64,000 bases of DNA from positions 800,001 to 864,000 of the forward strand of contig CAVOKF010000008.1 in NCBI GenBank assembly GCA_963696385.1, written 5' to 3'. Below the pieces are notes generated by a model. It saw only the letters and a list, made by a program, of their open reading frames with translations. It did not search any database and was not told where the DNA came from. This document shows positions 18,693 through 25,897 of the stretch, piece by piece. A program made the position numbers and the translations under genes. This DNA is from an uncultured delta proteobacterium (lineage in GTDB: Bacteria; Myxococcota_A; Polyangia; Polyangiales; Polyangiaceae). How positions within the stretch are numbered: position 1 is the stretch's first letter; each line of letters opens with the position of its first letter.

Positions 18693-19067
18693 ATGCCGAT
18701 CAAGACCAAGCGCTGGAACGATCCCCTCGAGCCCGACGACGGCCACCGCCTGCTCGTCTGCCGCTACCGTCCCCGTGGGGTCCGGAAGGACGCCGAGATC
18801 TGGGACGCGTGGTCGCCTCAGCTCGGTCCGAGCCGCGAGCTGCATGCCGCCCTTTATGGCAAGCACGGACCTCCGATCGACTGGTCCGAATTCCGCCGTC
18901 GCTACCTCGCCGAGATGGGCGGGCACCGGGAGGCGATTGTAAACCTCGGCGCTCGCGTCGCGGCCGGCGAGACAATCACCCTGCTCTGCTCGTCGGCATG
19001 CTCGGACCCCGAGCGATGTCACCGGACTTTGCTCAGCGGGCTGGTCGCGGGGGCGGGAGAGGGGTGA
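18693..19067 (+). CDS. DUF488/YeaO-family protein
   Basis: DDGHRLLVCRYRPRGV, LGPSREL, FRRRYLAEM, CHR. Confidence 0.88.
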   Translation: MPIKTKRWNDPLEPDDGHRLLVCRYRPRGVRKDAEIWDAWSPQLGPSRELHAALYGKHGPPIDWSEFRRRYLAEMGGHREAIVNLGARVAAGETITLLCSSACSDPERCHRTLLSGLVAGAGEG

Positions 19068-19164
19068 CCAAGCCTGAAAATGGCGCCGCGATCGAGAGCC
19101 CCACCGGCGCCCGGACCAGCCCCGACGGAACGCCTCCGTTCGTGCGATCATCGAAGCCATCGCG

Positions 19165-19464
19165 ATGCGACCCTCGCCCGCGGCGGACTGTCGTGCCCGG
19201 CCAGGAGAGTTCGCGCCGGTCGTCGATCGGGCAAAGTGCGAGGGGAAGTCCGAGTGCGTCGAGGTCTGCCCATTCCACGTGTTCGAGGTCGGCCGCATGG
19301 GCGACGCCGACTTCGCGCAGCTCGGCGTGTTCGGCAAGCTCAAGAGCATCGCGCACGGGCGGAAAACGGCCTACACGCCTCGGGTGTCGGCTTGCCAAGC
19401 GTGCGGCAAGTGTGTTGAGGCGCGCCCCGAGAAGGCGATCAAGCTGTCTCGCGTCCAGGTGTGA
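19165..19464 (+). CDS. 4Fe-4S dicluster ferredoxin
   Basis: CEGKSECVEVCP and CQACGKCVEARP (last Cys of the second motif replaced by Arg). Confidence 0.8.
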   Translation: MRPSPAADCRARPGEFAPVVDRAKCEGKSECVEVCPFHVFEVGRMGDADFAQLGVFGKLKSIAHGRKTAYTPRVSACQACGKCVEARPEKAIKLSRVQV

Positions 19465-19991: not shown

Positions 19992-20291
19992 GGCCAAAAC
20001 AAAGGCGGCCGACCACGCGCACTTGCCGCGAATGCCGCTGGTTTTGCGAACCCTGACCCCGACACCGCGCAACACCGGACGCCACCGAACGCCATGGCGT
20101 TGGGCAACTGGGGGGAAACGGACGTCGCCGGGCGAAGGGCCCTGGTCGGACGTCGAAGGACGGCGGTCGTTCGGCGCCACGCTCGCCGACGACCGGGTCG
20201 GTCAGGCCGCATCGTGGTCGGGCAAAGAGCCCGCGGCCCATCATCTGATGAGTTTGCGCGTCAGGCCCCGGTCGAGCGTCGCCCCGCGACA

Positions 20292-20300
20292 TGTTACCAT
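20292..20300 (+). promoter_or_regulatory. Extended -10 promoter, probably giving a leaderless antitoxin mRNA
   Basis: TGtTACCAT; the ATG at 20307 begins 7 nt after the end of the -10 box. Confidence 0.5.
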
Positions 20301-20306
20301 ACGCGT

Positions 20307-20528
20307 ATGCGTCCGGTCGAAGCTTGCTACGAAAATGGCTTCCTGAAGCCCGCGCAACCTCTCAAACTTCGTCAGGGCGAGAAGGTCGCCGTCGTCGTTC
20401 TCCGTCGTCCTGACCCCGCACGCTGGGACATGAAGCGCCTTGCGGTCGGCAGCGCCGAGGACGAAACGCTTGCCAGCGCCGGTCTCGGCGCGTGGGCCGA
20501 TGCACTCGACGCCGAGGACCGTCGTTGA
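20307..20528 (+). CDS. DUF104/AF2212-like antitoxin
   Basis: MRPVEACYENGFLKPAQPLKLRQGEKV; stop overlaps the toxin start. Confidence 0.85.
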   Translation: MRPVEACYENGFLKPAQPLKLRQGEKVAVVVLRRPDPARWDMKRLAVGSAEDETLASAGLGAWADALDAEDRR

Positions 20529-20871
20529 GGCGTGGAGAGATCTGGTGGGCTGACTTAGGTGGCCACCGGCCGATGGAGCAAACGGGCAGGCGCCCCGTCG
20601 TGATCTGGCAGAGCGACGCGCTCACAAGCGTACTCGCGTCCGTGCACGTCGTGCCGCTTACGACGAACCTCGATCGTGCTCAGCTCGCGGGCACCGCTCT
20701 GCTGCAGGCAACCGAAGGGGATTGCCCGATGACTCCGTGGCTCTCGCTTTTCAAATGCGCGCCGTACCGAAGTCCGCGCTGGTAACGCGTGTTCGCCCTT
20801 TGACCGAGACAGAAATGTCGGAGCTCGAACTCGCGACCGATGAAGCGCTCGGGCGTGTCGAGCCCGAATGA
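20525..20871 (+). pseudogene. PemK/MazF-family toxin, frameshifted
   Basis: RRGEIWWADL...EQTGRRPVVIWQ...VVPLTT; one base missing near 20717-20721; other frame continues LPDDSVALAFQMRAV to TGA 20869-20871. Confidence 0.85.
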
Positions 20872-20942: not shown

Positions 20943-21373
20943 TCAACCAGGCGTCGGTTGCCGCTTCTCTGCCGGGCCGATCCGCACGGGCCGTCCCTTC
21001 ACCCGAGCCCGTTGCATTCGTTCGAGGGCCCTCTCGGCATCCTCGGCCGAGCCTAACGACACGAACGCACAACCCCTAGACAGGAACACGTCCGTCAAAG
21101 TGAATCCGTGAAGCGCAAAGGCTTCGATCACATCGTCTTGCGTCACGTCCTATTGTAAATTGCCGACGTATAAGCGAGCTTCCTTCAGCAAGGATCGACG
21201 TTCGTCCCATGCGTTGGTCACCTCTACGCGCGCCGCTCCCCATTCATGCAAATTCTCTGGCGAGTCGTCCGAGGCGTAGACGCTGGGCGATCGTGGGCCT
21301 CCTCAATGGCTCGGTCCAGGTAGTCCACCAATTCCTGCGCATTCTCGCGGACAGTTGCGTGCGTGCTCGCTGA
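20943..21373 (-). pseudogene. 3' remnant of a larger gene ending in an RRM (RNA-recognition motif) domain
   Basis: ARLYVGNLQ*DVTQDD (RNP2; TAG at 21150-21152), RGCAFVSL (RNP1), GRPVRIGPA; frameshift near 21285. Confidence 0.7.
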
Positions 21374-21595: not shown

Positions 21596-21636
21596 TAGAG
21601 CGGGAGAAGGGATTTGAACCCGTCCACCTTGGCAAG
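21596..21636 (-). repeat. Duplicated 3' half of tRNA-Gly (att site) with a 5-bp internal deletion
   Basis: tagagcgggagaagggatttgaaccc + gtccaccttggcaag matches 30752-30797 except for a missing tcgac. Confidence 0.9.
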
Positions 21637-21896: not shown

Positions 21897-22469
21897 CTAG
21901 GTTCGCCGCCGGCGGAGGCTGGGGCACTGCGCGGCACGCTGCGGCCCGAGCAGCGTGTGCACCCACTGCTCGTGCTCCGGAAGAATGCGCATGCGAGCAT
22001 GAACTAGGGCGGAGAAGACCGCGTCGACGAGCCGCGCACCAAGTGCGGCGCCCACTGCGGGGTCCGCGAAAATCGCACCGCTCGAGAGGAGCGTCACCGT
22101 AGGCAGATGGGCCGCAGCAACACGTCGTCCCTTGCGTTCATCGATGGCGACGGGAAGTCCAAGCGCTTCACCGGCGGCCAGGGCCGCAGCCTCCCCGTCG
22201 TCCAGGTCGTCGGGCGCGTCCGCGCCGGTGAGTTCCACGAAGCGCAGGAGCGCCGGGCCGGGGAGCTGAATCTTCTCGAGGAGGCCCGCTCCGATCAGCG
22301 GCGCCAGCGGATCGCCAGACGGCCGCGGTTCGAGCGGATGCCGGATCACTTCACGGGAAGTGACGGCGACGACGATCCGTCGCCCCTGAAGCGCTGCGAG
22401 AACCCCCTCGGCCTGACCGCTGCCGAGGATGTTCAACATCACGCTCGTGTCGAGCACGACGACGCTCAT
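21897..22469 (-). CDS. PIN-domain protein (putative nuclease toxin)
   Basis: VVLDTSV, SREV, LDDGEAAALA, IDERKGRR acidic PIN signature; ATGA overlap with upstream gene. Confidence 0.8.
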   Translation of the reverse strand: MSVVVLDTSVMLNILGSGQAEGVLAALQGRRIVVAVTSREVIRHPLEPRPSGDPLAPLIGAGLLEKIQLPGPALLRFVELTGADAPDDLDDGEAAALAAGEALGLPVAIDERKGRRVAAAHLPTVTLLSSGAIFADPAVGAALGARLVDAVFSALVHARMRILPEHEQWVHTLLGPQRAAQCPSLRRRRT

Positions 22470-23617
22470 CCCGCGTGCGCCTCGATCGCGGCGTCGATCG
22501 CGTCGACGGAGGTGAAGGCGTCGATCGCGCGCCGGAGCTCCACGCGATCCATCACGAGCATGTCTGCGAGTTGGCCCTCGCTGTAGAGCCCCTGCTCGTG
22601 GGCCTCTGCGGCGAGCATCAGGAGGCGCGCTCCGGGCTCCGTGCTCTCGCCTTCCTCCTGGCTTCCGAGCACGCGTTGCACGGCCTCCTCATCGAGCCCC
22701 CGATCCTTGACGGAGTCGTAGGTTCCCTGCGGCAGCAGCTCCAGCCGCTCCAACTGGCGCGTGAATGCCTCGACCGACACTCCAAGCCGGTGTGCACCCA
22801 AGATCAGGTGCCGCGCGGAGAACCTGCCTTCTTGCCCGACGTATTCATCGAAGATTCTACGCACCGTCGCGCTGGGCATGAGGAAAGCCGCAGCGAACGC
22901 GTCAGCGAAGACGTCGTCGGGATGCTTTCCCACGAGTGTGAAGGCGATGCTTGGCTCTCGACGGGTCGTGAGGAAGTGAGCAAGCTCGTGCGCCAGCGTC
23001 CACCGGCGCCGGGCGCGCCTGTGCAAGCGGTTGAGCAGTACGCACGCGCCCAGCTCGTCATGGAACGCGTAGACACCTGCGATGGAAGAGGGCAGGGCGC
23101 GAACGAAGACGCGAAGTCCGAGCTCGAGCTCCAGGAGCCCGACGAGATCAGGAATCGGTCCGAGCCCCAAGCCGAGTCGAGAGCGCAGTTCTGCCGCCAG
23201 CTCCTCGGCCTGCTTGTCCAGGCGTCCACGCCCAGGCCTCCGCTCGGGCGGGTAGTCGATGGGGGTTACCTTGTGGAGGCGGTGCTCGAGCTCGACGTAG
23301 GCCGCCGCGAGGTCGTGAAGGAGCGTCAGGGCCTGCACGCCTTCTCGATCCGCCTTTCCTGCGCGGCCGGTGCTCTTGCGGCGAAACTGCCCGACGAGAT
23401 CGACGCGAACCGCGGTCGGCCGGAGGAACGAGTGCACGCCGACCCCATAGAGCGCGGCGAGAGCAACAAGTTCCTCGGGTCGTGGCTGTCGGTCCCCCCC
23501 TTCGATTGCAACGAGCGTCGTCCGGGCGACGCCGAGTTTCTCTGCCGCGTGCTCCTGCGTCAGTCCGGCCGCCCCGCGAGCGACTCGAAGTCGTTCCCCT
23601 AGCTTTGCTGGATCCAT
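22466..23617 (-). CDS. XRE-HTH plus ImmA/IrrE-family zinc metallopeptidase
   Basis: LGERLRVAR...LTQEHAAEKLGVARTTLVAIEGGDR; RRWTLAHELAH (HExxH); ADAFAAAFLMP; C-terminal HTH-like SEGQLADML. Confidence 0.92.
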   Translation of the reverse strand: MDPAKLGERLRVARGAAGLTQEHAAEKLGVARTTLVAIEGGDRQPRPEELVALAALYGVGVHSFLRPTAVRVDLVGQFRRKSTGRAGKADREGVQALTLLHDLAAAYVELEHRLHKVTPIDYPPERRPGRGRLDKQAEELAAELRSRLGLGLGPIPDLVGLLELELGLRVFVRALPSSIAGVYAFHDELGACVLLNRLHRRARRRWTLAHELAHFLTTRREPSIAFTLVGKHPDDVFADAFAAAFLMPSATVRRIFDEYVGQEGRFSARHLILGAHRLGVSVEAFTRQLERLELLPQGTYDSVKDRGLDEEAVQRVLGSQEEGESTEPGARLLMLAAEAHEQGLYSEGQLADMLVMDRVELRRAIDAFTSVDAIDAAIEAHAG

Positions 23618-24972
23618 GGATCACCGGGTCCTTGCTCAGAAGTCACAACCTGACGCAACCAACTTCTTTCGGGCACCGCGTTGACGAAGCCGCTCCACTC
23701 CTCCGCATGCTTCGCGAAAAGGCGGCCGAGCTTCGTCTCGACCTCGGCGGACGGCCGCCCCACGGACCTCGCCGTCTCCAGCACGTGACCGCGGTAGTTC
23801 GGCAGCTTCGCGGCTACGCCCGCGAGCTCGTCGAGATCCACCGCGGCGTACGTTCCGACCTCGCGATCAGCCGGCTGCGCATCCGCCGGGAGGTCCGCGT
23901 CGACGAGAACGTCGGCGTAGTAGGTTCCAGCGTCCTCGACGAGGCCAGCCGCCCGAAGGGACTGGCGGCGGAACATGCAGCCGGAGCAAAGCCCGCAGTG
24001 GCTCGCGGACACGTTCGGGTGCTGCCGGCGGACGTTTCGGCTGCACGAGCGCGTCCGCTGCCATCCTTCGAGGGCCTTGCGGGCGTGCAGCTCTGCAAGC
24101 ACCTCCCCCTTCGTAACCCACAAGTGCGGCAGCTCGAACGGCGGCAGCACACCCCATAGGTGCTCGAAACATGCGCCTAGTTTCTTGATGAACATGGGGT
24201 GGCAACCGGAGACGGGTTGCTCGATGCCGAACGGCACGAAGGAAGGCCCAAGGCACCCGATGCCGCTCTCGCCGATCCAGATGCGAGCGGCGTTGTTTCG
24301 GCGCCAGGCGAGGGCAGCCAACGAAAAGAACACGAGGGTCCGCGTTCGATACGACGGCTCCGCGTGCGAGCCTCCCGAAACCGTGAACGGAACCGCCAGC
24401 GCGGGCGCCGAGCGATCGCGATCCGGGAGAACCGAGTGCAGCGAGCGCGCGCCGTGCTGTGCATGGACGAGCAAGAGCGGCGCGCCGTCGTTCTGAACGC
24501 GGTGCTGGGCGACCGTGGCGAACGAGTCCAAGCCGCCGCTGTACGGCGCGACGGTCGCCCCGCGAAACTCGCGCGGCAACTGCGGCAGGAAGAGCTGACG
24601 GAGCTCGTCGGCAGCCGTGCGGGGACGAAATTCGAGGCGCCAGAAATCACCGCTCACGTCGTGCAGCAGCGACACCAGCTCCGGCGAGACGCGTTCCCAT
24701 TCGGCAGGCAGATACACGGGCACAGAGAGCGCGACCGCTCGGCCCCATCGACTGCCCCGTCGCCGCGACACGCGCCGATCCGCGAAGGCGATCGAGGCGA
24801 GCACGACGAGCAAGTCGACGTCGATCTCCTCGAGCGGCGTACTGCTGCACCGCTCGAGTGCTCCGCGATCGAACCGGAGCTCGGGGCCGAGGGCGCAAGA
24901 GATCGCATCGTCGGGCGCGGGAGCGCCGGCCTGCTCGAGGACAACGGTCGAGTGCTCTACCGCGGCGTTCAT
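23599..24972 (-). CDS. QueC/QatC-like PP-loop ATP pyrophosphatase
   Basis: YSGGLDS PP-loop; EPSYRTR; ESG; CHP; TKGE; TRSC...HCGLCSGCMFRR zinc motif; about 140-aa N-terminal extension (IAFADRRVSR...W). Confidence 0.85.
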   Translation of the reverse strand: MNAAVEHSTVVLEQAGAPAPDDAISCALGPELRFDRGALERCSSTPLEEIDVDLLVVLASIAFADRRVSRRRGSRWGRAVALSVPVYLPAEWERVSPELVSLLHDVSGDFWRLEFRPRTAADELRQLFLPQLPREFRGATVAPYSGGLDSFATVAQHRVQNDGAPLLLVHAQHGARSLHSVLPDRDRSAPALAVPFTVSGGSHAEPSYRTRTLVFFSLAALAWRRNNAARIWIGESGIGCLGPSFVPFGIEQPVSGCHPMFIKKLGACFEHLWGVLPPFELPHLWVTKGEVLAELHARKALEGWQRTRSCSRNVRRQHPNVSASHCGLCSGCMFRRQSLRAAGLVEDAGTYYADVLVDADLPADAQPADREVGTYAAVDLDELAGVAAKLPNYRGHVLETARSVGRPSAEVETKLGRLFAKHAEEWSGFVNAVPERSWLRQVVTSEQGPGDPWIQQS

Positions 24973-25376
24973 CGGCCCCCCCGTAGGTCAGCGTCTAGGT
25001 CGAGCCGAAGCTTCGTCGCGCGCGGCGGCGCCTCACCGGCAAGGTGACGACGCGCCAGACCCTCCAGATCAGCAGACCGCGCGGCCTCGCCGAAGCGACC
25101 CAGGAGCGCGGGGCAGTCGCGTGGGAAGTCGACGTTCCCCTGTGCACGAACCTCGCGCCCGACGACGCTCACGCGGTCCACGAGAGCTTGGGTCAGCGCT
25201 CGCCTGGCCGCTTCCTCGGCGGATATCCGCTGGTCTGCGATTGCTGCACCTTGACGAAGGAAGGACGCTTCGATCGCGCTGCGCGGCTCGCACGCCGGTT
25301 GAAAGGACTCGCCGGGGAACAGCGAGCCCTCGCCGGCGGCCAGCGCGCGTCGGAGGTAGTCGACGGTGAATGTCAT
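24969..25376 (-). CDS. Hypothetical protein, first gene of the QueC-like cassette
   Basis: AGGA RBS before ATG 25376; ATGA overlap with the QueC-like gene; 5' end uncertain. Confidence 0.6.
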   Translation of the reverse strand: MTFTVDYLRRALAAGEGSLFPGESFQPACEPRSAIEASFLRQGAAIADQRISAEEAARRALTQALVDRVSVVGREVRAQGNVDFPRDCPALLGRFGEAARSADLEGLARRHLAGEAPPRATKLRLDLDADLRGGR

Positions 25377-25393
25377 CGCGCATCCTGAACACA

Positions 25394-25452
25394 AGCATAG
25401 TGTCACCGGGAACAATGTCAAGTCGTGCTGGATGTATGCCTGACATTGTCAA
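25394..25452 (-). promoter_or_regulatory. Sigma70-type promoter with palindromic operator
   Basis: TTGACA (25421-25416), 16 nt, TATGCT (25399-25394); second TTGACA overlapping palindrome TGACAnTGTCA at 25441-25451. Confidence 0.7.
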
Positions 25453-25897
25453 TTCGCTCTCGGAGTGCGACGAGCCGGAGCCGGCGCTGGCCTCAGCTCC
25501 AGCGCAGGCCGGGAAACGCAGACGACAGCGGGAAGCGGCTCACGTGCCGCTCCTCGGGCCCGGCGCCGCGCGCGCGGGCCCCGCGCAGGCACTCGCTATC
25601 CTCCGCCCCCGCCCGGCGGTGCGCCGTTGGTAGCGGCAGGAGCCTGCTTGGCGCGAAGTCTTTGGATCACGGCGACCGTTCGATCCCCGATGCCCGGCGT
25701 GAAGGCATCCTTGCTCGCGTCGATGTCGGTGAACTCGTACGCGACCTTTCCGTCCCAATTCGTCGTCGGCGTGAGCTGCAAGGTCGAGGGGTCTCCGTCC
25801 AGCTCAAGCTCCGTCGGCAGGGCCAGACGCCCCCGAACTGCCCCGAGGGACAGGCCGGTGAACGAAGCGATCTCCTTCGCAAGCCCCGTGGAGCCGC

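What the first reader, a model, noticed from the sequence alone, without database searches (positions are those of the whole stretch)
21897..25452. Four-gene cassette (unknown ORF, QueC/QatC-like enzyme, XRE-IrrE metallopeptidase, PIN protein): candidate defence or toxin system
Seen: four same-strand genes joined by ATGA overlaps (24969-72, 22466-69) and a 19-bp overlap (23599-617), with their own promoter, next to the att end of a tRNA-Gly island. The three recognisable genes keep their catalytic motifs (SGGLDS plus Cys4; HELAH; PIN acidic residues) while many neighbours are broken. Established: long QueC-family proteins act in anti-phage systems (QatC of QatABCD, Cap9 of type IV CBASS), where they are reported to attach a deazaguanine base to a partner protein. 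HTH plus IrrE/ImmA peptidases act as antitoxins or sensors (RosmerTA, CapH/CapP), and PIN domains are RNase toxins. Here QatA (NTPase), QatD (TatD), a CD-NTase, TGT and queD/queE are all absent, so it matches none of those architectures. Inference: a stand-alone system in which QueC-type modification of a partner (the first ORF?) and proteolysis control a PIN effector.
Basis: partly seen in the sequence, partly recalled or inferred. Interest (0 to 1): 0.88.

Follow-up and report, generated by a model that had tools for sequence, protein, structure and literature searches.

The report
Qat-like four-gene defence operon, broken here
These four genes are a widespread, apparently undescribed bacterial operon that probably defends against viruses, in which a relative of the protein-modifying enzyme QatC is predicted to bind a new kind of partner protein next to a self-repressing regulator and an RNase, but the copy in this genome has lost part of its first gene.

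Summary
The cassette is real and conserved. Behind the enzyme stand the XRE-M78 and PIN genes in 23 of 23 species-level genome loci from several phyla, and ORF1 precedes it in 22 of 23. The enzyme has the QatC fold (TM 0.70-0.74) but forms its own clade, misses the QatC cut-off and lacks QatC's two invariant substrate-site threonines. ORF1 is an all-helical protein with no detectable likeness to QatB. It starts M-[S/R]-D, not with the modified glycine; Asp3 is kept in 99 of 100. A complex model supports binding of intact ORF1 to the enzyme on the surfaces that QatC uses for QatB (0.86, best control 0.01). A palindrome TGACAWTGTCA, usually doubled 31-33 bp apart over the promoter, lies in 55 of 60 upstream regions: a likely XRE operator. 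Defence is inferred, not shown. Eight literature searches found no description of this arrangement. Verdict: new variant of the Qat kind, not a qatABCD member.

The parts
25441..25451 (-). Palindromic box 1, TGACAATGTCA: likely XRE operator
   Evidence: Sequence; one of 3 exact copies in the 6.9-Mb genome; conserved upstream of ORF1 across phyla
25410..25421 (-). Box 2 (TGACATTGTTC, 2 mismatches), 31 bp from box 1, overlapping the -35 hexamer TTGACA
   Evidence: two boxes 31-33 bp apart in 40 of 60 upstream regions
25394..25399 (-). -10-like hexamer TATGCT, 16 bp after the -35; implies a nearly leaderless mRNA
   Evidence: Read from the sequence; inference, no transcript start measured
25353..25383 (-). 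5' remnant of ORF1 (MRDDIHRRLP), the conserved N-terminal tail; out of frame with the rest after a 131-nt deletion
   Evidence: DNA alignment with L036, L033, L034; homologue starts
24969..25376 (-). 3' part of ORF1: 135 aa from an internal ATG, covering about residues 55-181 of the 180-190-aa all-helical partner protein
   Evidence: 84% to P0060 residues 55-186; fold of the intact family member; complex model
23599..24972 (-). QatC-like PP-loop ATP pyrophosphatase, 457 aa, SGGLDS and Cys4 intact; own clade
   Evidence: PADLOC QatC 1e-38; NCBIfam QatC 140 bits, cut-off 280; PDB QatC 5e-26; TM 0.70-0.74 to 9y01_B for a 61%-identical homologue; tree
22466..23617 (-). XRE helix-turn-helix fused to an ImmA/IrrE (M78) zinc peptidase, with a weak C-terminal HTH; 383 aa
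   Evidence: Pfam HTH_31 1e-13, Peptidase_M78 2e-14; RmrA 2e-30, CapP 7e-15; HExxH in 40 of 40 non-redundant homologues
21897..22469 (-). PIN-domain protein, DUF3368/COG2405-like, 190 aa, acidic active-site residues kept
   Evidence: No Pfam hit; ESM Atlas DUF3368 0.96, 28 of 30 hits; PADLOC PDC-S70 2e-4; D7 41/44, E40 44/44, D91 43/44, E93 44/44, D110 44/44
21598..21636 (-). Copy of the tRNA-Gly 3' end (att-like), with a 5-nt gap; far end of a 9.1-kb island
   Evidence: blastn of the tRNA against the genome
30754..30826 (-). tRNA-Gly(GCC), the other end of the island
   Evidence: ARAGORN

Best explanation
A self-repressed, Qat-like anti-phage operon. The XRE-M78 protein binds the two TGACAWTGTCA boxes and keeps the operon low (inferred). 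An infection or DNA-damage signal activates its peptidase and lifts repression (inferred from ImmA, IrrE and CapP). The QatC-like enzyme holds ORF1 in a 1:1 complex (modelled) and uses ATP to modify ORF1's N-terminal tail (inferred from Cap9 and QatC; the adduct is probably not a deazaguanine on glycine). ORF1 then licenses the PIN RNase, as the QatB tail engages the nuclease QatD, and the cell stops growing (inferred). Shown here: gene content, conservation, active sites, the motif and the tree. In this genome ORF1 has lost its tail, so the copy is probably switched off for good.
For: Fixed order with no fifth gene: XRE and PIN in 23 of 23, ORF1 in 22 of 23 species-level loci (the miss is at a contig end); 9 of 9 plasmid enzyme loci opened show four genes; 20 of 21 plasmid PIN matches lie about 1.2 kb behind the enzyme. 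Pairwise identities of the four proteins co-vary over 28 cassettes (Spearman 0.48-0.73; kin not independent). Complex score 0.86 against a best control of 0.01; the mark was reached by 116 of 157 solved and 2 of 215 mismatched pairs; runs agree in at least 68% of contacts, partner pLDDT about 80. The interface uses the enzyme's pre-HP loop (249-255) and C-terminal helices (373-404), which correspond to the QatC surfaces that bind QatB, and ORF1 tail residues 5-12 (PMC13279940). Operator in 55 of 60 upstream regions, shuffles 1.6 (max 6), 0 of 20 before the sister partner genes that lack the XRE gene; the same box precedes a different partner in two loci that share XRE and PIN. Defence genes within 7 kb in 9 of 20 genome loci scanned and 4 of 6 plasmid loci. 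Patchy: this clade in 1 of 60 relatives. The QatB tail binds QatD (PMC13639016).
Against: No phenotype, binding or chemistry was measured. QatB-QatC structures exist (9y01, released 2025), so the complex pass may partly come from likeness; ORF1 residues 1-4 were not placed with confidence. No link between ORF1 and PIN was tested. 11 of 20 scanned loci had no clear defence neighbour, and there is no background rate. This island's other genes are a carbonic anhydrase, a hydrolase and a dehydrogenase. The P-loop is SDG or SNG rather than SGG in many members. XRE-M78 + PIN also exists as a module by itself (PMC2701414, PMC5499597). QatBC alone protects against some phages (PMC13279940), so the PIN may not be the effector.
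Confidence: 0.5

Rival explanations
1. The ORF1-enzyme pair is itself the antiviral effector, as QatBC is; XRE-M78 and PIN are an attached toxin-antitoxin-like module that sets expression and keeps the element in the cell.
For: QatBC alone blocks lambda-vir (PMC13279940). HTH-COG2856 + PIN is a free-standing predicted module. The module also goes with a second enzyme lineage and another partner (L167, L168), and one plasmid PIN has no enzyme upstream (L163). A sister family pairs a QatC-like enzyme with a partner and no XRE or PIN. Loss of the ORF1 tail is tolerated here with PIN intact, so ORF1 is not the PIN's antitoxin.
Against: Enzymes of this clade were never seen without XRE and PIN where the contig allowed a look in the 23 genome loci, and the four proteins' distances co-vary, which fits one working unit.
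Confidence: 0.25
2. It is a stress-response or addiction module of mobile islands and plasmids, not a phage defence: DNA damage lifts repression and the PIN causes dormancy, with the enzyme-partner pair tuning it.
For: Carried on plasmids and a tRNA island; COG2856-XRE proteins answer DNA damage in ICEBs1 and Deinococcus (PMC2701414); 11 of 20 loci lack clear defence neighbours.
Against: The only tested members of the QatC fold are anti-phage; RM, Shedu, AbiE, Mokosh-like, Hma-like and Lit-family genes flank many loci.
Confidence: 0.15
3. The copy in this genome still works: the 135-aa ORF1 piece is made from ATG 25376 and binds the enzyme, or XRE-M78 + PIN act alone.
For: Three genes and the promoter are intact; the deleted form recurs in at least two other studies; the piece keeps the modelled interface residues 68-138; an AGGA lies 6 nt before ATG 25376; two RNA contigs fall in the enzyme gene (weak).
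Against: The deletion removes or displaces Asp3 (99 of 100), Trp15 (92 of 100) and Ala38 (94 of 100) and the first two helices of the model with part of the third. Tail-less QatB still binds QatC but gives no defence (PMC13639016, PMC13279940). All other full-length family members read keep the tail.
Confidence: 0.12
4. The enzyme is a stand-in QueC for queuosine synthesis in a host that lacks the housekeeping gene.
For: No canonical queC was found in this 96%-complete genome; NCBI names plasmid members 7-cyano-7-deazaguanine synthase.
Against: 16 of 24 host genomes have a canonical QueC besides; TM to QueC is 0.30-0.32 against 0.70-0.74 to QatC; the YxQxHxxE, VPxRN and YPDC motifs are absent; QatC does not complement a queC deletion (PMC13329287).
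Confidence: 0.03

Closest known systems
qatABCD (QatB-QatC core)
   Same: Enzyme of about 450 aa with the QatC N- and C-terminal extensions, P-loop, Cys4, DxxxxR/WxR, RxR, ExG, HP and TK motifs; an all-helical partner gene overlapping its start; a modelled interface on the same loop and C-terminal helices; a nuclease later in the operon.
   Different: Separate clade (99 support); below the NCBIfam cut-off; Thr278/Thr280 not kept; partner 180-190 aa, no detectable likeness to QatB, tail M-[S/R]-D instead of MGTS; no QatA or QatD; XRE-M78 and PIN instead; a conserved operator pair.
Type IV CBASS (Cap9-CdnD deazaguanylation)
   Same: QueC-family enzyme proposed to modify the N-terminal tail of the protein encoded next to it.
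   Different: Cap9 is about 185 aa and keeps the Tyr/Asp CDG site; TM 0.31; no CD-NTase, no TGT (Cap10); the partner has no N-terminal glycine.
Predicted three-component HTH-COG2856 (DUF955) + PIN (COG2405/DUF3368) modules (Makarova 2009; Matelska 2017)
   Same: XRE-HTH fused to an M78 peptidase, directly followed by a DUF3368-like PIN gene.
   Different: Here the pair is tied to the enzyme and its partner (20 of 21 plasmid PIN matches); the passages read mention no QueC-family link.
RosmerTA (RmrA) and CapH/CapP
   Same: HTH plus zinc peptidase; RmrA profile 2e-30, CapP 7e-15, CapH 6e-7.
   Different: No RmrT match; CapH and CapP are separate proteins regulating a separate operon, while this regulator is fused and sits inside the operon it probably represses.
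Canonical QueC (preQ0 synthase)
   Same: PP-loop and zinc site.
   Different: Twice the length, catalytic signature absent, no queD/queE beside it.

Membership tests
qatABCD | QueC-family enzyme with the QatC fold (N- and C-terminal extensions) | tested here: met
   TM 0.70-0.74 to 9y01_B/9y02_B over about 460 columns, model of the L033 homologue
qatABCD | Score over the NCBIfam QatC cut-off (280 bits) and place within the QatC clade | tested here: not met
   140, 126 and 128 bits; 40 cassette enzymes form one side of a branch (SH-aLRT 99), 16 QatC another (88); quick tree only
qatABCD | Invariant Thr278/Thr280 at the substrate site | tested here: not met
   T/T in 16 of 16 QatC; in 54 cassette enzymes the first position is D30, Y6, H5, V4, F4, Q3 and the second R30, G12, S7, T3; window V/G
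qatABCD | Partner with an N-terminal MGTS glycine motif | tested here: not met
   Position 2 of ORF1: S55, R40, Q3, H1, gap 1 of 100; position 3 D99; MGTS in the 16 QatB read
qatABCD | Partner homologous to QatB in sequence or fold | tested here: inconclusive
   hhalign probability 0.5%; QatB not among the listed rows of three fold searches, best Z 6.9 to unrelated helical domains; an unlisted family is not excluded
qatABCD | Partner binds the enzyme through the active-site loop and C-terminal extension | tested here: inconclusive
   Model supports it, 0.86 against best control 0.01 (mark reached by 116 of 157 solved, 2 of 215 mismatched pairs); a model does not show binding
qatABCD | qatA (KAP NTPase) and qatD (TatD) in the operon | tested here: not met
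   XRE and PIN follow the enzyme directly in 23 of 23 loci; no QatA or QatD among the listed PADLOC hits of 106 neighbour proteins; none annotated in 9 plasmid loci
qatABCD | Anti-phage activity needing the enzyme and the partner's tail | not testable with these tools
   Needs plaque assays
Type IV CBASS | CD-NTase and TGT-like Cap10 in the operon | tested here: not met
   Four-gene unit with no conserved fifth gene; no such PADLOC hit listed for cassette or neighbours
Type IV CBASS | Short Cap9 with the Tyr/Asp CDG-binding motif | tested here: not met
   457 aa; TM 0.31 to 9nto_B; no YxDC at the site
Canonical QueC | About 220 aa with YxQxHxxE, VPxRN and YPDC; TIGR00364 over cut-off | tested here: not met
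   Pfam QueC 17.9 bits, under 22; no TIGR00364 match at the locus; motifs absent
HTH-COG2856 + PIN predicted module | XRE-HTH fused to an HExxH M78 peptidase, followed by a COG2405/DUF3368-type PIN with acidic tetrad | tested here: met
   the DUF3368 label rests on the Atlas feature search, not on a Pfam hit
HTH-COG2856 + PIN predicted module | PIN is toxic and is neutralised or controlled by the HTH-peptidase | not testable with these tools
   Needs expression tests
RosmerTA | RmrA-like antitoxin next to an RmrT toxin | tested here: not met
   RmrA 2e-30 for the XRE-M78 protein, but the adjacent proteins match PDC-S70 (PIN), QatC or nothing
CapH/CapP | Separate HTH repressor cleaved by an ssDNA-activated peptidase | not testable with these tools
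   Domains are fused here; activation and cleavage need biochemistry

The most novel reading that the evidence does not exclude
This clade has reversed the chemistry of its family. Instead of activating a small-molecule carboxylate (CDG) for attack by the partner's N-terminal glycine, the enzyme adenylates the side chain of the partner's invariant Asp3 and joins it to an amine of a nucleobase, a metabolite or another protein. That would be a new protein-conjugation reaction used as an immune switch for a PIN RNase. It fits the loss of the small-molecule site (no Tyr/Asp, no Thr/Thr), a free N-terminus that is not in a fixed register (Met kept before Arg, removed before Ser), Asp3 as the most conserved residue of ORF1, and hosts without canonical queC. 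It is not shown: the model did not place residues 1-4, and Asp3 may only be a binding contact.
Probability: 0.17. Interest if true: 0.92.

Novelty: new variant of a known kind. Interest (0 to 1): 0.7.

Why it matters
What QatC does chemically, and how the modified partner stops a phage, is stated as open in the 2026 QatBC papers read here. This operon is a natural experiment on that question: the same enzyme fold and binding surfaces, but a different partner, no acceptor glycine, a rebuilt substrate site, and a different nuclease. It shows that the QatC scaffold has been reused with at least four partner families (MGTS, MGHxR, M-[S/R]-D, MDGD). It also supplies a concrete binding site for an XRE-M78 regulator and a context for the long-predicted HTH-peptidase + PIN modules. 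Intact copies lie on sequenced plasmids of cultured soil and marine Alphaproteobacteria, so it can be tested at once.

Tried and rejected
ORF1 family: no Pfam, PADLOC or NCBIfam match; PDB sequence search gave only helical chance hits; ESM Atlas gave unnamed clusters; three fold searches gave nothing above Z 6.9 and did not list QatB, although the QatB-QatC entries are in the Foldseek library; this shows neither a new fold nor a different one. ORF1 against the MGHxR partners: only a weak N-terminal likeness (LPxxxxW; probability 8-9%), not taken as homology. Assembly error as cause of the deletion: rejected, since L034 has it and contigs of runs X4 and X5, from two studies other than the possible source, cross the junction with no difference; contigs drop rare variants, so an intact minority is not excluded. 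Expression: two RNA contigs in the enzyme gene (run X19, same study as the possible source; no silent stretch laid) are no evidence of transcription. Phage carriage: no match in 50,697 phage records; IMG/VR was not scanned. Dependence on host CDG: 16 of 24 hosts have canonical QueC and 22 of 24 a PTPS/QueD-family gene; the genomes are incomplete and QueE was not searched, so undecided. A rule that QatC-like cores always carry a nuclease: only 5 of 16 MGHxR-type enzymes have the REase tail, so not claimed. The careful tree did not finish; the quick tree is used and long branches make the order of clades unsure. Supplement of PMC13329287: one file held, no PF06114 in it; its neighbourhood table may not be in that file and could list this context. 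Earlier scan notes: nothing.


Full report
Observation. The 457-aa enzyme has SGGLDS and four cysteines; the 383-aa protein is an XRE helix-turn-helix fused to an M78 peptidase (Pfam 1e-13 and 2e-14); the 190-aa protein has no Pfam match but falls with DUF3368-type PIN clusters in the ESM Atlas (0.96, 28 of 30 hits). The unit lies 260 bp inside a copy of the tRNA-Gly 3' end (21598-21636), 9.1 kb from the tRNA itself. The island's other genes that I scanned are a carbonic anhydrase, an alpha/beta hydrolase, a zinc dehydrogenase and a 154-aa protein without a match; I saw no integrase among them.

The first gene is broken here. Homologues are 180-190 aa and begin MRDDIH, MRDGIY or MSDGPH. The window has that start at 25383, but 131 nt are missing after codon 10 against L036 and L033. 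The start now runs out of frame to a stop at 25069; an internal ATG at 25376 gives a 135-aa piece without the tail and the first helices. The deletion is real: L034 has it, and contigs of two runs from other studies cross the junction without a difference (X4 25031-25477, X5 25253-25555). So the claim that the cassette is intact among broken neighbours does not hold. One inference follows: the tail can be lost while the PIN gene stays whole, so ORF1 is unlikely to be the PIN's antitoxin.

The cassette is conserved. A scan of one genome per species gave 32 loci. In the 24 best, of which I dropped L022 as a second fragment from the genome of L021, XRE-M78 and PIN follow the enzyme in 23 of 23 and ORF1 precedes it in 22 of 23, the miss being at a contig end. 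Record titles name Myxococcota-type, acidobacterial, verrucomicrobial, planctomycete, alpha- and gammaproteobacterial hosts. The 8 weaker loci belong to other lineages. Clustering 243 neighbour ORFs from 35 loci showed no conserved fifth gene. On plasmids, 9 of 9 enzyme loci that I opened show the four genes, and 20 of 21 matches to the PIN lie about 1.2 kb behind an enzyme match; the exception, L163, has no enzyme within 4 kb. Among 60 relatives of this genome one has the same clade. No phage record matched. HExxH is kept in 40 of 40 and the PIN acidic residues in 41-44 of 44 non-redundant homologues.

Neighbourhood. I scanned 106 of the 243 neighbour ORFs against PADLOC-DB 2.0. Of 20 genome loci covered, 9 had defence-type genes within 7 kb (type I RM and SoFic; Mokosh-like; Hma-like twice, one by clustering; TIR; HEC-05 and AbiE; methyltransferase and DrmC-like; DUF499/DUF3780; Shedu and PDC-M01). 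I did not count five generic hits (kinase, AAA activator, ThiF, UvrD, cyclase). Four of six plasmid loci with 6-kb flanks carry annotated defence genes. There is no background control, so this is suggestive only.

The enzyme. A model of a 61%-identical homologue (pLDDT 93) matches QatC at TM 0.70-0.74, QueC at 0.30-0.32 and Cap9 at 0.31. It stays under the NCBIfam QatC cut-off (140 of 280 bits). In a quick tree of 72 rows (from 87, thinned at 80% identity), the 40 cassette enzymes are one side of a long branch (SH-aLRT 99), apart from 16 QatC (88) and 13 enzymes of a sister family (98). The two threonines that are invariant and essential in QatC (PMC13279940) are T/T in 16 of 16 QatC and T or S in 13 of 13 sister enzymes, but vary in the cassette clade; the Tyr/Asp of QueC and Cap9 is absent too. 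This genome has no canonical queC by two searches, 16 of 24 hosts do.

The partner. ORF1 folds as a helical body with free tails of about 12 and 22 residues (pLDDT 88.6). It shows no sequence likeness to QatB (0.5%) and no clear fold match. Position 2 is Ser, Arg, Gln or His, never Gly; Asp3 is kept in 99 of 100 rows, the other being a gap (over half of the rows are from one MSDGPH subgroup). The complex model of intact ORF1 with the enzyme, ATP and zinc scored 0.86 against a best control of 0.01; that mark was reached by 116 of 157 solved complexes and 2 of 215 mismatched pairs, the runs agree in at least 68% of contacts and the partner's pLDDT is about 80. It supports binding and does not show it; the counts hold only roughly with my alignments, and solved QatB-QatC structures may help the score. 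The contacts lie on the enzyme's loop before the HP motif (249-255), its C-terminal helices (373-404) and the N-terminal extension, the regions that QatC uses for QatB (PMC13279940, PMC13376578); ORF1 residues 5-12 touch the enzyme near 209 and 314, and residues 1-4 are not placed.

The operator. TGACAWTGTCA, with up to two mismatches, lies in 55 of 60 distinct 110-nt upstream regions; 40 have two boxes 31-33 bp apart; shuffles give 1.6 (at most 6) and 0.03; the 20 upstream regions of sister-family partner genes, which lack the XRE gene, have none. TTGACA is also a -35 hexamer, which explains half of the second box but not the palindrome or the pairing. Two loci with a different enzyme lineage and a different partner, but the same XRE and PIN, have the same box (L167, L168), so the box follows the XRE gene. 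Binding is inferred. The core equals that of E. coli matS, GTGACATTGTCAC (PMC8669397), with other flanks.

Mechanism. Shown: content, order, conservation, active sites, motif, tree, deletion. Modelled: ORF1-enzyme binding. Inferred: auto-repression; release by the peptidase on a damage or infection signal; ATP-dependent modification of the ORF1 tail; activation of the PIN RNase through ORF1, by analogy with the QatB tail, which binds the nuclease QatD and carries a low level of NDG (PMC13639016). I give this chain 0.5; the main rival is that ORF1 and the enzyme act alone, as QatBC can (0.25). The boldest reading is that Asp3 is the activated carboxylate (0.17).

Comparison and novelty. It works like QatBC but fails membership on the cut-off, clade, substrate-site threonines, glycine tail and qatA/qatD. 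The HTH-peptidase + PIN half is a predicted module in print (PMC2701414, PMC5499597). Searches for the arrangement listed no paper that describes it; most subscription journals are not in that library, PADLOC-DB is of 2023, and DefenseFinder was not available. What I saw of each paper: PMC13329287, parts 1-3 of 5 and one supplementary file searched; PMC13279940, parts 1-3 of 6; PMC13376578, PMC13639016, PMC5499597, PMC2701414, PMC8669397 and bioRxiv 10.1101/2025.04.06.647259, passages found by term; PMC13228613 and bioRxiv 10.1101/2022.04.27.489752, the search listing only (a term search in the first found nothing). RosmerTA biology, ssDNA activation of CapP and the rule for methionine removal before Arg are recalled; PADLOC supplied the names RmrA, CapP and CapH. 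Supplements I could not see, above all the neighbourhood table of PMC13329287, may already list this context.

Verdict. A real, widespread, apparently undescribed variant of the Qat kind with a new partner family and a predicted operator; function inferred; this copy probably dead. Interest 0.70.

Noticed in passing
L026, L027, L031, L094, L098, L100, L106, L117, L121, L124, L141 and others: A sister family of QatC-like enzymes (600-730 aa) preceded by a 250-265-aa partner that starts MGHxRLGxLP[KR]xxxW (21 loci). It keeps the T-R-T site, has no PADLOC, Pfam or NCBIfam match for the partner, and a weak profile likeness to QatB (37%). The enzyme's C-terminal domain varies: a DpnII/MboI-like REase in 5 of 16, other domains elsewhere. 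Looks like a second undescribed Qat-like system.
   Followed up: partly
L167:1969-5420 (G032:C115), L168:2064-5755 (G001:C442): A further lineage: QatC-like enzyme with XRE-M78, PIN and the same TGACATTGTCA box, but a different partner starting MDGDIF; it falls outside the cassette clade on a long branch.
   Followed up: partly
window 20097-20785 (+): AF2212-like antitoxin gene followed by a PemK/MazF-like gene of only 97 aa whose match stops at profile position 60 of 109, probably frameshifted. It lies just outside the att copy.
   Followed up: partly
G000:C2:105562-105606: A second copy of the tRNA-Gly 3' end (45 nt, 98%) on another contig, suggesting a further element that integrated at the same tRNA.
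   Followed up: no
G000:C4:95881-96936: Another XRE-M78 fusion (31% identical) elsewhere in the genome; two more exact TGACAWTGTCA sites at C8:8985 and C8:644049.
   Followed up: no
G000 whole genome: No canonical queC found in this 96%-complete genome, though a PTPS/QueD-family gene is present.
   Followed up: partly
L003, L008, L020, L077, L096, L042: Several other copies of the cassette show frameshifts or splits in one gene. Some may be assembly errors; if real, inactivation of the operon is common, which would fit a cost to the host.
   Followed up: no
window 18693-19464 (+) and 20943-21146 (-): A DUF488-N3 (active subclade) gene, a small ferredoxin and a short RRM-domain gene lie just beyond the island end.
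   Followed up: no
L158:1136-3265 (NZ_CP150126): A qatC annotated as 709 aa with no separate qatD after it, possibly a QatC-QatD fusion.
   Followed up: no
G357:C1:1245619-1246560: The genome of L011 holds a second QatC-like gene besides its cassette.
   Followed up: no
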